Of a DNA stretch of 64,000 bases, positions 39,528 to 44,800 are shown one piece after another (the stretch's first letter is position 1; every line of letters begins with the position of its first letter). This stretch comes from Pocillopora damicornis (lineage: Eukaryota). Where the stretch lies: assembly GCF_003704095.1 (NCBI RefSeq), contig NW_020844892.1:372001-436000 (forward strand), in the 5' to 3' direction. A program made the translations under genes and the position numbers. The notes under the pieces are model-generated. The model was not told the origin of the DNA and searched no databases. It worked only from the letters and a program-made list of their open reading frames with translations.

Positions 39528-39614
39528 CTGACCAATAGAGTAACATTTTACTGGAAGTCTGACCAATAAAATGGTACTAAATTTAGCATGGGCTCTGGCC
39601 ATTCTGGGCGTGGC
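39528..39614 (+). promoter_or_regulatory. Orphan promoter: tandem CCAAT boxes plus GC box
   Basis: CTGACCAATA repeated exactly at 39528 and 39559 (31-bp spacing), GGGCGTGGC at 39606-39614, then ATGs and a GTAAGT donor at 39879. Confidence 0.55.
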
Positions 39615-40264
39615 AACAATTAAATTAAGTGATTGTTAGGACTCTTGCCTTGACGCCCCATTGATTAGCATTGCATGATACAGTCTCAACCACTTGTCCC
39701 TAGAACCTCAACTTGGGTCGATTCACAATTCTTTGAACAACAATGCGGATGGTGACGATTATTAATGACAATGGACAAGTATATGAAATCAGAGGAACGT
39801 CAAGGAAAAAAGATCTTCCATAAACTATGGGACCCTTTGAGATTCGGGGAACAAGGCAAAAAAATCTCGATTATTTAGGTAAGTCAGACTGATTCTTTGT
39901 TTAAAAGTTTTTCGACTTCCCTTAACGCTTTTAAACTGTTTGTGATCATGCGCAAAGCCGCTCATGGTTCAATTGTTAAGAGTCAGTATGTGATTACATT
40001 TTGAAAATCAGTTTTAATACGGCGAGGGAGCGAGTGTGTGGAAATGAATAACTTTTCTAAACGTGCTTTGCAGTTCAAAGTAGCACGGGACCCAGTTATC
40101 TATGTCTCAAAACTCTATTTTTTGTGTTGCGACCCTAAATTCCTTCATGAATTAGGTTTTAATTGACTTCACCACACTTGTTCCATAGTCCGTAGTTTAC
40201 GTTCGGTGTGTTTGGATGAACTACCAACTAGTTTACTCCATTCCTTATTTTTCTCTAACAGTTA

Positions 40265-40880
40265 ATAGGCGTCGTTCAGCCTCAAACCAGTCCACTCTTT
40301 TATGTTATCCTTCTATCGCCTCGTTTGTCTGCAGCCTTTCCTTCTCCCAGCTCTTGTAGTTTATTGCAGGAGTGTCTTGGAAGGCCTTGATAATCTCGAC
40401 ATGTGCCCATACCATCTCAGTGTTACCTCTTTGGAGGTTTTCCTGGTAACTGAAGGGTCTTCGGCTGTTGGCTTGTCTTTTTCATTTTTTTTTCTTTATT
40501 TCTAAATTTCTCTCTCTGTAGTAGATGTACAGCCACTTTTGGAAACATTTCATCATTGCTTTGTCATCTGTCAGTATCCACTACTTCCATTTACACAAAA
40601 ATATTGAGGTTACCCAGTGCAAGTCTAATTTTTGTGATGAAGGCAAGGTTCCTGTCATTTCAGCTCTAAGAGAGCAGTTTTGAACTGCACAGCCTAAGAG
40701 AGCTCTTTGGCTTTTATCCATAATCAAAATTTATGTTGCTAAAGATTTGAAGTTGCTTGCAGATTCCAGTCTCTTAGTGCTAATGTGTAGTTGTTGGTGT
40801 TGTTGTTTCCATCAATGTGCGTAGTGTATGCTTTAGAGGTCAAGGATTTTCATGAAGCCGAAGAACTCAACTTCCTACCT
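40265..40880 (-). mobile_element. RTE-clade non-LTR retrotransposon (LINE) remnant, C-terminal part of the RT ORF
   Basis: Minus-strand pieces in order: KRLESASNFKSL, NDRNLAFITKIRL, VTSIFL..WILT, MKCFQK, LRWYGHMSR (WYGH at 40403-40414), KTLLQ*TTRAGRRKGCRQTRR*KDNIKEWTGLRLND. This is the typical RTE 'L.WYGHV.R...GRR.GRQ..RW.DNI.EWTG' ending. Many stops. Confidence 0.85.
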
Positions 40881-40926
40881 TTCATATTATTTTTGATCGG
40901 GTGGCTGACGAGGCTCGACATGATTC

Positions 40927-41103
40927 TAGCCAACGTTTCGAGCGTAAATATTTGTTATTTGCTCTGTCGAAGGGCTAACGCTCGAAACGTCAGCTTCAAA
41001 ACTCTTTACGGTAGCCAATTTACATTATCAACTCAGTTGATAAAACAAATTGTCTTAAAATTTTCCCACCGACGCAGCATCACAGTTTCTTAAGAAACTT
41101 ACC
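40927..41103 (+). mobile_element. PLE-derived terminal repeat with hammerhead-type motif (40961-40994), preceded by a short inverted fragment of itself (40927-40945)
   Basis: GCT-CTGTCGA-AGGGCTAACGCTC-GAAA-CG-TC-AGC, then AAACTCTTTACGGTAGCCAATTTACATTATCAACTCAGTTGAT ... CCCACCGACGCAGCATCACAGTTTCT, collinear with 229-378. Confidence 0.8.
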
Positions 41104-41364
41104 GCACAAATTCTGGCAAAGTTTCGTTGCCTGTCTATATATTGAGCCCATCGTGTGGAATACTCATCAATCTGCCAGATGTTGTTGCTCCTAGGCCTGG
41201 TAATGTTCATTTCGCGAGTGAGAGGAAAAAACGTTAATGGACAGACAAATTACCTTTAAGAAATTATGGCCGATTGATTACGAGAAAGCAAGAAACACAA
41301 TACTACAAGAGACAGAATTTTGAAAGACGGATGATTTGACCAACAGACCAGAAAACTCGACATA

Positions 41365-41786
41365 CAATCGAATCTGTATTAAGCGGCACCATATTAAGCA
41401 CTCACCTGTATTAAGCGGTCGGTTTTCAAACTGCCGAAAATGTTACTCCTTGATTGATGCAATTTTCATCTCTTTTAACCGGTCACTTCTATTTAGCGGT
41501 CGTGGTCACCCTCCTTAGTCCCATCGACCTGTTCGTATTGTCCACCACCTCTAATGAACGGTCACTTGATGCGGAACCACTCAAATAAGACCAAGACTTA
41601 TCCATAGTTTTCTCCCAAAATCAATGTTAATAGTATTTTTGACTGAGTTTTTGTACATTAAGTGGTCATTTATTGCATAAAATGACGTTTTTTATCGTTT
41701 CTTCATAATACCACTATTCTGTGGAACCTGTATTAAGTGGTCAACCTGTATTAAGGTTGGGTTACCGCTTGATTTAGGTTTGACTG
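41365..41786. mobile_element. MITE, Tc1/mariner-pogo-like non-autonomous element
   Basis: Imperfect TIRs: TA-CAATCGAATCTGTATTAAGCGGCACC at left, GGTTACCGCTTGATTTAGGTTTGACTG at right. Internal subterminal repeats CCTGTATTAAGYGGTC. Confidence 0.8.
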
Positions 41787-41800
41787 CTATTTGGTTTTAT

Positions 41801-41881
41801 TGACTGTGTTGATAAAGTAAACTGGCCACCCGTAAAAAGTGTTTAGACCTGTCGTTTCGAACTTTGACCCTTCGTCAGAGC
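41801..41881 (-). mobile_element. Third, inverted partial copy of the PLE-derived hammerhead-bearing repeat
   Basis: Reverse complement reads GCT-CTGACGA-AGGGTCAAAGTTC-GAAA-CG-AC-AGG ... TTTTTACGGGTGGCCAGTTTACTTTATCAAC. Core intact, cleavage triplet mutated. Confidence 0.75.
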
Positions 41882-44800
41882 CTTTCGTAGGAAATACTGC
41901 GAGCATACCCAAACAGTTCCCATGGGTAAAATTGATTGAGAAACTTACCGAGCTAAAGAGAAGTTATAAGATAAAGGAGTTCGATCTATCATTGAAACTA
42001 TCTGTGTTCTACGTAATAGGCCACTCCCTTATTGCGATCTACACCCAACTGATCAACAAGAGAGAATATCCTTTGAGAGCTATAATGGATCACGCAGGAT
42101 AGATTACCTGCAGCTCACCAGAAGTCTTAAGAGCGCCAAAGATCTCTCCAAAAAATCATTCTCATTCACCCTGGACAAAGAAGACATCTTCAACGCCTCG
42201 ATGTGGACTCGATATTCTACATTACCATACACGAAACACTTGTCATCACCAGAGACCGCTGAGAGGGTATGGAACGAAAGAAGAGAACGAACCGAGAGGC
42301 GACTGACCTTATGTACCTCACAAAATGTATTGGCAAACCCTCATAGTTCACGTAGGAATGCGCCACTTTGCAATCCAATACCCCCAACCCTGGCAGGCAT
42401 TTTTTAATGGATTGGTTGGAAGAACAATCAGTCGCTTGGACAGTGAAGCTAAGCCTTGGAGCATGCAAGTGGATGATTACGTAGAAGTCGTTAATAGTGG
42501 ACTAGTGGAGGCTCTGATAGGTTAATTTATCGGTATTAGCAGGATCAAATTTGCCCATTTCACAGAAGCATAAGTCCAAATTCTGTTCCTGGACACATTA
42601 CACGCAATACAGGACCCGTCTCCGGAGTGACAACATAATTTCAGAGGAAAAAGAACGAAGGAATGAATACGAGCATGTAAGAACAGTATTCGACGCGTTT
42701 GGACATCCAGGGTGAGGGAAAAAATGTAGGCTAAAAAAGACGCCAAAGGAGAGAAAAAGCATGGGAAACACACGAGTAACGAAGAGGAATGGTGTTATTT
42801 CAATCGTCAAACCATTTACACAAAGGATGCAGCGCATATTCGCCGACGGCGCACAGTAGTCTTAACTGTAAAACCATATACTTATCACCCCTATTTAAGT
42901 CCAAGTACACCCGACGGAAAAGAATAATCGGTTTATAAAGAGAGAGGCAGCACACAAAATCCTTCGCATACGAAGGGAAACAGTACAGAAAGTTTGAAGT
43001 AAGAATGAGAACATTTCGAAGTCAGGTAATAGATGGATCCTTGGCAGGCATTTCACGAGAACCAATAGCAAAGCCTCGGCTTACAATGAAATGAAATAAA
43101 TTATACCTTGAATTCCGAATTAGGAAAAGTAATGAAATGTTCTCCAATGGTAAGGTGGGATTTGAAAACCTAGAGGTGAAGAAACCTGTCGATATTTACC
43201 GGAACAGATCGATGCTCCAAATGTAAACCATTGAGAGAAGATTCAAATTTGCAATTGAATTAAGACATTGATTAGAAAACGTATTGGCTAATGAAACCAA
43301 GGGTCATCTAGTCTAGGATTTGTTGCTTTAAAAACAGCACAACATTAAATAAGATTCTTTCGATCAAAAAAAACATGATATTTTCCCCAAGTAAGATACA
43401 CTTCTACAACGTACTGAGGAGACCGAATACCAAATTGAAAGTCACAAATGCATTTCGATCCAGCTTCTAGTGTTGTCGTCAAAGACAACAGCTAAATTCC
43501 CAGAAGCAACCTCTCGGCTTCTCTTTAAAATCACTCTACCAAAGCAAAATCTTTGTGGTAGAGGCTCCTGGTATGGGCAGATTAGCACTCCTTTAAATTT
43601 AGAACCAGATAAAAATGCATCGAAAAGGAAAGCAAGTCTCTCGACTTTCCGCCTTGGAAGTTAGTAAACTCTGTTTGAAGATATTTGAACTTGTTCGTTA
43701 CGTCTTTAGTTCAATACTGAATCACTTGGGCCGTGGCTTTCGCTCATTTCCGGAGCTATAAAACTACATCTAATGAAGCATTATTAGTCTCTGTGGGAAG
43801 TAGGTGATAAAAAAAATGGACCACTTAAACAAACACAGCGGTATGCAAAACCTTTCCAAAATGAATCTTCTTGTCTATAAGAGACCGTTTGTGATTTGCA
43901 CACGCAAACACTTTACTTTTGTTGACGAAAAATGATGGTGGTGTTGCTGTTTGGTTAGTTCCCCTCCAAAGATTCTAGTGGGAGATTTAAAGTGGAAATG
44001 ACATAGCTTGTGCTTCAAGATAGTCGATAATTTTAAATGATAGCAACTTTTGGGTGTTTCAAGGTGTTTCAATCAACCAGCTTTACGTTCCCAATAAACC
44101 GTTCATCAAAACCATGAGAAGCAAAAGTAGACGTCCTCGGTCTACCAAGCTGGTGGCAAGTTTGTTTTTACTATTATAAGATCTTAATGAAATTTGAATC
44201 AAATATTTTGAGTTGTTTGCCAAGTTGGCTCTAAATAGGCCAATTGAGACCCTGAGTTGTTCCCATATCTACAGGTTTGAATGCTTACAGCGATTTTACC
44301 TCCACCGAGTGGTGCGTGGCTCAAGCAGGTGTATGAATTATGGTTCAAATACCTCTTAAAGTACGCAGTCCAATTCGCAAGGATTCTTTCTTGTATTAGT
44401 TCAATTGTCTCTTATATACCTGATGGATCGTTAATCACCTTTGTTTTTTCCATTGAATCCTGAGAACAGAGTATATAACGTGAGTGTTACGCCAGAACAA
44501 ACAAAGACTCAACAGTTAAACGCCTTTTGTTCTTATTTGTTTGGTTCTATGTATTTTTTGGTTCATGTTATTCCGCTCGTTGTTTTCACCACGTTTTGGG
44601 CAAGAAACTGGTCAAAATAAAACCTTTATGACAAAAAGCAAGTTTTCAAAACTCGTAATAAATAATCTAAACGTATCACAACCTGCCTGAATTCAAGCCA
44701 TTATTTCAACTCCTCTTTCCTTTTTCACTAATTCCGTTTGTTTTTATCTTATTGTTCCCTTATCTGAATTTGTAACAATGAATAGAAATTCCACTCACCC

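What the first reader, a model, noticed from the sequence alone, without database searches (positions are those of the whole stretch)
39528..43100. Hidden two-exon gene inside the cluster, broken only at two homopolymer runs
Seen: a promoter (two identical CTGACCAATA boxes 31 bp apart plus a GC box), ATG at 39765, a perfect GTAAGT donor at 39879, a 2.1-kb interval holding all the local transposon debris, an acceptor at 42019, a 129-codon open frame, and AATAAA near 43095. As written, exon 1 ends in TAG. Removing one A from the A7 run gives MTMDKYMKSEERQGKKIFHKLWDPLRFGEQGKKSRLFR|PLPYCD.. in frame with exon 2. Removing one T from the T6 run at 42400-42405 extends it to 42525 (205 aa). Both disruptions are single extra bases in homopolymers, as expected from long-read error or slippage. 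Inference: an unannotated resident of the NK cluster (orphan gene, young pseudogene, lncRNA, or a distal first exon of Msx). The basic stretch WNERRERTERRL faintly recalls a bHLH basic region, but I cannot support a family call.
Basis: partly seen in the sequence, partly recalled or inferred. Interest (0 to 1): 0.7.

Follow-up and report, generated by a model that had tools for sequence, protein, structure and literature searches.

The report
Coral RNA spanning NK homeobox genes
This is the far end of a spliced coral RNA whose first intron is 37 kb long and holds two NK homeobox genes on the opposite strand; the RNA is likely non-coding, the proposed 205-residue protein is not in the sequence, and any role would likely come from transcription running across those developmental genes.

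Summary
The transcript is real; the hidden protein is not. PolyA RNA contigs show the 39878->42020 GT-AG splice (2 of 4 runs, two studies). That leaves a 37,319-nt intron holding the NK3-like and NK4-like genes antisense. The RNA runs past AATAAA 43095 to at least 43732, with no joint to Msx. Both homopolymers are real: RNA and DNA contigs keep A7 and T6, 218 contigs encode the A7 37-aa form, and 27 of 30 exon-C products stop at T6. One spliced contig (P0038) does fuse the frames (166 aa), so a rare A6-type allele or a slip exists. The frame has no relatives among 1.84 billion proteins, 9 of 10 listed SNPs change residues, and it has no codon-frame preference. Three other corals are collinear only from about 43,690 onward. 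Verdict: likely an antisense host lncRNA of the NK cluster with lineage-restricted distal exons; function untested.

The parts
2001..2400 (+). Likely promoter of the transcript: CpG-rich patch with CCAAT (2215), TTCCCGC (2194; E2F-like label recalled) and a GC box (2297)
   Evidence: CpG o/e 1.44, against 0.07-0.29 at 3.2-6.0 kb; motifs; promoter role inferred, start site not mapped
2355..2384 (+). Exon A, 3' part (5' end unknown), donor GTAAGT at 2385
   Evidence: 28-letter loose 5' end in X16 and X14 maps once in the window and once in G000, with one letter different
2385..39703 (+). Intron 1, 37,319 nt, GT..AG
   Evidence: no N in the window; 0 of 116 sense frames of 48+ codons reach a Pfam cut-off
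17874..18788 (-). NK3-like homeobox gene nested in intron 1, antisense
   Evidence: ORFs; Homeodomain; best PDB match Nkx-3.1
21738..23167 (-). NK4 (Nkx2.5-like) homeobox gene nested in intron 1, antisense
   Evidence: ORFs; Homeodomain; best PDB match Nkx-2.5, with Nkx-2.1 close behind
39528..39613 (+).
   Evidence: motifs present; CpG o/e 0.41-0.57; no laid RNA contig begins here
39704..39878 (+). Exon B, 175 nt, internal; carries a 37-codon ORF (39765-39878) ending in TAG at the donor
   Evidence: X16 record 39702-39875 with 0 gaps; pyrimidine-rich acceptor ending 39703
39858..39864 (+). A7 run; real and nearly fixed
   Evidence: no indel in X16, X19 or X9; 218 contigs with the 37-aa form; one frame-fused spliced contig, P0038
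39879..42019 (+). Intron 2, 2141 nt, with dispersed repeats near 40925-41105, 41360-41790 and 41790-41880
   Evidence: joint in X16 and X19; repeats
42020..43732 (+). Exon C (3' end not mapped; patchy RNA cover continues to about 45.9 kb)
   Evidence: X16 record to 43732; X14, X17 and X19 cover parts
42021..42407 (+). 128-codon open frame, out of frame with the exon B ATGs in the common allele; likely not a selected protein
42400..42405 (+). T6 run; real
   Evidence: no indel in 4 of 4 RNA runs; 27 of 30 products end here
43670..43720 (.). Synteny break against three other corals
   Evidence: collinear at 67-86% in blocks from about 43,698 to 58.8 kb, no similarity upstream
49096..50600 (+). 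Msx, same strand, with its own RNA contigs starting at 49096-49114

Best explanation
The locus is the 3' part of a spliced RNA of at least three exons whose 37-kb first intron holds NK3 and NK4 on the opposite strand; it is likely a long non-coding RNA, likely started from a constitutive CpG-rich promoter near 2.2 kb, and it would act, if at all, by transcription across NK4 and NK3 toward Msx rather than through a protein. Shown: both splice joints, the nesting, the fixed homopolymers and the lack of protein relatives. Inferred: the promoter; long-standing transcription over 2.4-32 kb (strand skew); exons B and C as young splice sites picked up in lineage-restricted DNA; a cis effect on the nested genes (antisense interference or chromatin marking), which I put at about 0.3 on its own.
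For: B-C joint in 2 of 4 RNA runs from two studies and in P0038. A-B joint in 2 of 3 RNA runs, mapping uniquely to a GTAAGT donor and a pyrimidine-rich AG acceptor. The spliced A-B-C RNA has no ATG ORF above 68 codons and up to six ATGs before 39765. No relative beyond near-identical copies among 1.84 billion representatives (3 hits), while Msx exon 1 finds relatives at 72-85% and 42-46%. 9 of 10 listed SNPs in the frame are non-synonymous: P 0.19 if neutral, 0.0005 if omega is 0.2. T-over-A plus G-over-C skew is +0.14 over 2.4-32 kb (27 of 29 kb positive), equal to the upstream + strand BTBD16-like gene (+0.14), against about 0 at -40 to -24 kb and -4 to 2.3 kb. CpG peak then depletion at exon A.
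Against: The A-B joint rests on 30 letters in two runs of one study. Contigs cannot show strand, start, end or level. The 128-codon frame is longer than 96.6% of simulations. Two indels in it are in frame (18 nt; 3 residues), though two rows are frameshifted. P0038 is a natural fusion. Exon C has coding-like base composition. Skew is also positive at 50.5-63 kb, outside the known RNA (+0.08), and near zero at 32-39.7 kb, inside it. 25 of 65 SNP rows were not shown. No test of function was possible.
Confidence: 0.72

Rival explanations
1. Functionless read-through: a constitutive promoter with weak termination yields rare long transcripts that use chance splice sites in young DNA. The structure is the same as in the best explanation, with no regulatory role.
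For: Exon C DNA has no counterpart in three other corals. Unspliced or intron-reaching contigs exist (X17 from 41947, X19 from 41853). Under 1% of coral lncRNAs are shared across genera (PMC13343488, passages).
Against: Canonical joints recur in separate samples; strand skew over 30 kb suggests old, sustained transcription; the unit crosses two developmental regulators.
Confidence: 0.45
2. De novo proto-gene: a transcribed, spliced locus in which a one-base allele at the A run opens a 166-172-aa ORF that segregates at low frequency.
For: P0038 joins exon B in frame to exon C; ATG 39771 has A at -3 and G at +4; the frame stays open in 27 of 30 listed products.
Against: One contig against 218 with A7, and no unspliced A6 form among the 2 clusters found. 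A homopolymer slip in one contig explains it as well. The SNP pattern is neutral. The products listed are biased toward open frames, and the gene caller read TGA as W (P0005, P0043).
Confidence: 0.12
3. One reading: an intact 205-aa orphan gene hidden by two sequencing errors, or a young pseudogene of one.
For: Real splice sites; each single-base change would open the frame; P0038 matches the first change.
Against: A7 and T6 are confirmed in short-read contigs. No product extends past T6. X19 has a 2-nt deletion in the extension. No parent or ortholog in G000 or elsewhere.
Confidence: 0.03
4. Exons A and B are distal 5' exons of Msx, or exon A is a read-through exon of the upstream BTBD16-like gene.
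For: All three are on the + strand. An acceptor-like AG lies at 2304. The equal 30-letter overlap in two runs suggests exon A has other partners (inference from k-mer assembly).
Against: No joint to Msx in 4 of 4 runs, and no cover at 45.9-47.4 kb in any of the four. Msx contigs start at 49096-49114. The BTBD16-like gene appears to end about 3.6 kb before the window, and exon A has its own CpG peak.
Confidence: 0.08

Closest known systems
Antisense lncRNAs of homeobox clusters (HOTAIR-type loci; 98 of 241 human homeobox genes have one, PMC4584094)
   Same: Spliced opposite-strand RNA whose span overlaps clustered homeobox genes; fast sequence turnover
   Different: NK cluster, in a cnidarian; overlaps the genes only through one 37-kb intron; no sequence relation tested; no Polycomb or other function shown
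Coral polyA lncRNAs (2812-6798 per species, PMC13343488)
   Same: PolyA library, no Pfam match, little cross-genus conservation
   Different: Only 0.2-0.3% of those overlap a gene, and their mean length is 0.7-1.0 kb; this one hosts two transcription-factor genes and is at least 1.9 kb spliced
Bystander host genes of genomic regulatory blocks (recalled, no call)
   Same: Broadly expressed promoter, giant intron, developmental regulators inside
   Different: The host seems non-coding; conservation of the host across species was not shown
De novo genes arising from lncRNA loci (PMC9911349, listing and abstract start)
   Same: Spliced RNA with an ORF one base away from opening
   Different: The open allele was seen once; no translation or selection evidence

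Membership tests
lncRNA | Transcript over 200 nt | tested here: met
   X16 contig of 1919 nt spans exons A (part), B and C
lncRNA | Pol II-type processing (canonical splicing) | tested here: met
   two GT..AG joints
lncRNA | No conserved or selected ORF | tested here: met
lncRNA | Not productively translated | not testable with these tools
   no ribosome profiling or proteomics
Antisense homeobox-cluster lncRNA | Span overlaps a homeobox gene on the opposite strand | tested here: met
   intron 2385-39703 holds the NK3-like and NK4-like genes; strand taken from the GT..AG orientation
Antisense homeobox-cluster lncRNA | Regulates cluster genes | not testable with these tools
   needs perturbation or cell-resolved expression
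Protein-coding orphan gene | Intact ORF in the population | tested here: not met
   218 contigs with the A7 form against 1 fused contig; T6 stop kept
Protein-coding orphan gene | Purifying selection on codons | tested here: not met
   9 of 10 listed SNPs non-synonymous; 26 of 128 residues vary among 27 products plus the window; small sample
Young pseudogene | Intact parent or ortholog | tested here: not met
   none in G000, in 1.84 billion representatives or in three syntenic loci
bHLH | HLH domain | tested here: not met
   no Pfam HLH match at E up to 1; no PDB match below E 2
Distal first exon of Msx | Splice joint to Msx | tested here: not met
   0 of 4 runs; contigs drop rare isoforms
snoRNA or miRNA host gene | Known small-RNA family in an intron | tested here: not met
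   Rfam: 0 hits in 1-36500, one chance hit at E 0.46 in 36000-50000; lineage-specific RNAs would be missed
De novo proto-gene | Homologous non-coding DNA in an outgroup | tested here: inconclusive
   the syntenic position holds unrelated DNA
De novo proto-gene | Open allele segregating | tested here: inconclusive
   one contig (P0038); its DNA was not seen

The most novel reading that the evidence does not exclude
A constitutive promoter drives one non-coding host transcript through NK3 and NK4 to the doorstep of Msx and acts as a cluster-wide cis regulator that helps keep the NK3-NK4-Msx linkage in corals: long-range, lncRNA-based control of a homeobox cluster outside Bilateria. Its young last exons carry a de novo ORF that is open in a rare allele.
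Probability: 0.15. Interest if true: 0.75.

Novelty: new member of a known kind. Interest (0 to 1): 0.42.

Why it matters
Cnidarian homeobox clusters are described as largely disintegrated, with short-range cis regulation (PMC10719294, abstract and passages), and coral NK genes are tissue-specific (PMC11269664, passages). A 40-kb transcription unit that runs antisense over NK3 and NK4 and stops near Msx gives a concrete handle on whether lncRNA-type cluster control predates Bilateria: one promoter, two junctions and three target genes to test. If it is only read-through, the result is a corrected gene model and a caution against repairing homopolymers to make ORFs.

Tried and rejected
Sequencing error at A7/T6: rejected. 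bHLH: rejected. A resemblance of part of the exon C frame to LINE ORF1 proteins (recalled, no call): no support from Pfam, HMMER or the own genome. AlphaFold of P0038 as a single sequence: mean pLDDT 33.9, uninformative, so no fold search was run. The ESM Atlas gave no answer. The 161-aa database 'proteins' starting in intron 2 (P0001 and kin) are gene-caller products read with TGA as W (P0005 and P0043 show W where the window has TGA), so they are no evidence of a gene. The codon score of exon C looked coding-like but failed the frame control. Hidden coding exons in intron 1: 0 of 116 sense frames reach a Pfam cut-off, with one hit at E 0.01, as chance predicts; exons under 48 codons were not tested. 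Three downstream sense frames of exon C (42527-43096) and one antisense frame were not scanned against Pfam. Metagenome scan with the exon C frame: 231 pattern matches, 0 confirmed. Rfam: nothing. Earlier findings of the scan: 4 look-ups, 0 findings. X18 had no cover on exon B, which says nothing about expression. The relatives' loci do not reach exon A and probably not exon B, so conservation of those exons is untested.
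Full report
Setting. The window is G000:C1527:372001-436000. It holds an NK3-like gene (17.9-18.8 kb, minus strand), an NK4/Nkx2.5-like gene (21.7-23.2 kb, minus) and Msx (49.1-50.3 kb, plus). Upstream lie a BTBD16-like gene on the plus strand (Pfam BTB_BTBDG and BTBD16_C) and a homeobox ORF that I read as Lbx from memory. 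Msx relatives and run labels point to a stony coral.

Observation. The intron holds dispersed repeats and the exons are single-copy. The motifs alone are weak: homopolymers of 6 or more occur 2.5 per kb, the long frame has P about 0.03, and CCAAT pairs of this spacing occur 3 times in the window.

RNA. Six polyA or oligo-dT runs from three studies hold 52-92% of the words of 42000-43110; I laid five of the six, all as assembled contigs. The joint 39878->42020 (GT..AG) is in X16 and X19, 2 of 4 runs, from two studies. X16 has one 1919-nt contig over 39702-39878 and 42020-43732 with no gaps. X17 has a contig from 41947, unspliced at this acceptor. X16 and X19 run through AATAAA 43095. No joint reaches Msx, whose own intron (49559->49795) is seen in X14 and X16.

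The real 5' side. The X16 contig had 28 unplaced letters before 39702. A second lay showed the same 28 letters in X16 and X14, 2 of 3 RNA runs, both from one study. They map once in the window and once in G000, to 2355-2382, followed by AG and GTAAGT; one letter differs. Position 39703 ends a pyrimidine-rich acceptor. The window has no N, and run X9 has depth in all 30 bins of 31-40.7 kb with no joints. Around exon A, CpG o/e is 1.44 at 2001-2400 and 0.07-0.29 at 3.2-6.0 kb. That is the pattern of an unmethylated promoter followed by a methylated gene body (established for invertebrates, recalled). Strand skew over 2.4-32 kb is +0.14, the same as in the BTBD16-like gene, and about 0 in two flanks. 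It is also +0.08 at 50.5-63 kb and +0.02 at 32-39.7 kb, so it supports old plus-strand transcription without proving it.

Homopolymers. A7 shows no indel in X16 and X19 or in X9, organism B (contig 39183-40091, 0 gaps). Database gene calls give the A7 37-aa form on 218 contigs (9 sequences; the window's exact form on 201), another frameshifted form on 3 contigs, and no unspliced A6 form among the 2 clusters found. T6 shows no indel in 4 of 4 RNA runs. 27 of 30 listed exon C products end there and the other 3 are shifted or cut earlier; 8 of the 23 members of one cluster were not listed. Against my reading, P0038, from one 1256-nt contig, joins exon B in frame to exon C and gives 166 aa ending at the T6 stop. 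It is a rare allele or a slip; I did not see its DNA.

Protein. The frame finds only near-identical copies among 5.8 billion clustered proteins (5 hits, lengths 79-254 only) and among 1.84 billion representatives (3 hits, no length limit). The control, Msx exon 1, finds 11 proteins down to 42%. There is no paralog in G000 and no Pfam or PDB match. Nine of the 10 listed SNPs in the frame change a residue; neutral expectation is 73% (P 0.19) and omega 0.2 gives P 0.0005; 25 of 65 rows were hidden. Two rows are frameshifted inside the frame and two indels are in frame. In the spliced RNA the longest ATG ORF is 68 codons (exon A taken from 2230, an assumed start).

Relatives. A scan with Msx exon 1 gave 11 loci; three (L012, L013, L018; 82-86% identity) reach far enough upstream. 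They align with the window in collinear blocks from about 43,698 to 58.8 kb. Their block is absent from the window, its flanks and G000, apart from a 105-nt repeat piece. Exon C therefore sits in lineage-restricted DNA. The direction of the change is unknown, because the three may be one clade, and exons A and B may lie beyond these loci.

Mechanism. Most likely (0.72 for the structure and non-coding status) a constitutive promoter near 2.2 kb sends Pol II across NK3 and NK4 in antisense, and part of the transcripts splice to exons B and C and end 3-6 kb before Msx. Sequence turnover of the distal exons argues that any function lies in the act of transcription (inference). I give a cis-regulatory role about 0.3; functionless read-through is the main rival and shares the same anatomy.

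Known kinds. It meets the positional definition of an antisense homeobox lncRNA used in PMC4584094 (abstract and passages read). Coral lncRNA catalogues exist, with 0.2-0.3% overlapping genes (PMC13343488, abstract and passages; supplements not read, and they or other catalogues may list this RNA). PMC10719294, PMC11269664, bioRxiv 10.1101/2023.12.17.572093 and PMC4540969 were read as passages; PMC9911349 as listing and abstract start only. Seven full-text searches (NK cluster/lncRNA/coral/Msx/cnidarian; BTBD16/NK cluster/Lbx/Nkx3; a coral genus/long non-coding RNA/homeobox/antisense; lncRNA/cnidarian/homeobox cluster/Nematostella; coral lncRNAs; NK homeobox/nested/intron/lncRNA; de novo gene terms) listed no paper describing a lncRNA spanning a cnidarian NK cluster. 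I saw listings only for most hits, and the library lacks most subscription papers. I could not see the genome's annotation, so 'unannotated' is unverified.

Verdict. A real, previously unnoticed-by-the-reader larger transcription unit; a new member of a known kind; interest 0.42.

Noticed in passing
window 31000-36200: Patchy RNA contigs in X14, X16 and X18 (two studies), with none at 36.2-38.4 kb and no joints. Strand skew fades at about 32 kb, so this may be an older last exon of the same unit or a separate RNA.
   Followed up: no
L005-L004 (about -20 to -3.6 kb from the window start): A BTBD16-like gene sits between an Lbx-like homeobox and NK3. Human BTBD16 lies near NK-cluster genes on 10q26 (recalled, no call), so this may be an old bystander linkage; one of the 20 listed hits mentions BTBD16, once, and was not read.
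   Followed up: partly
window 600-2016 and G000:C1527:371532-371945: A dispersed repeat relic with an inverted copy of about 410 nt, like long terminal inverted repeats, ends right at the exon A promoter.
   Followed up: no
window 43700-49100: Non-coding DNA upstream of Msx is 69-81% identical to three other corals over several kb, most of all 47.1-49.1 kb: candidate Msx enhancers.
   Followed up: no
L018:2274-4233, L012:691-2637, L013:705-2410: A block of about 2 kb shared by three corals, with a GTAAGT near L018:2972 and no long ORF, is missing from G000. It could carry their own version of a distal exon.
   Followed up: partly
window 5250-5380 and 5613-5660: Acceptor-like and donor-like sites and an AATAAA in the CpG-depleted stretch after exon A (read by eye) could form a short main isoform; all frames there close early.
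   Followed up: no
window 38450-39100 and 47860-49000: Low-depth RNA contigs just upstream of exon B (X16) and upstream of Msx (X14, X16), with no joints.
   Followed up: no
window 63210-64000 and L008: A minus-strand trypsin-like protease gene, with MAM-like exons further on (label recalled), closes the cluster on the right.
   Followed up: no
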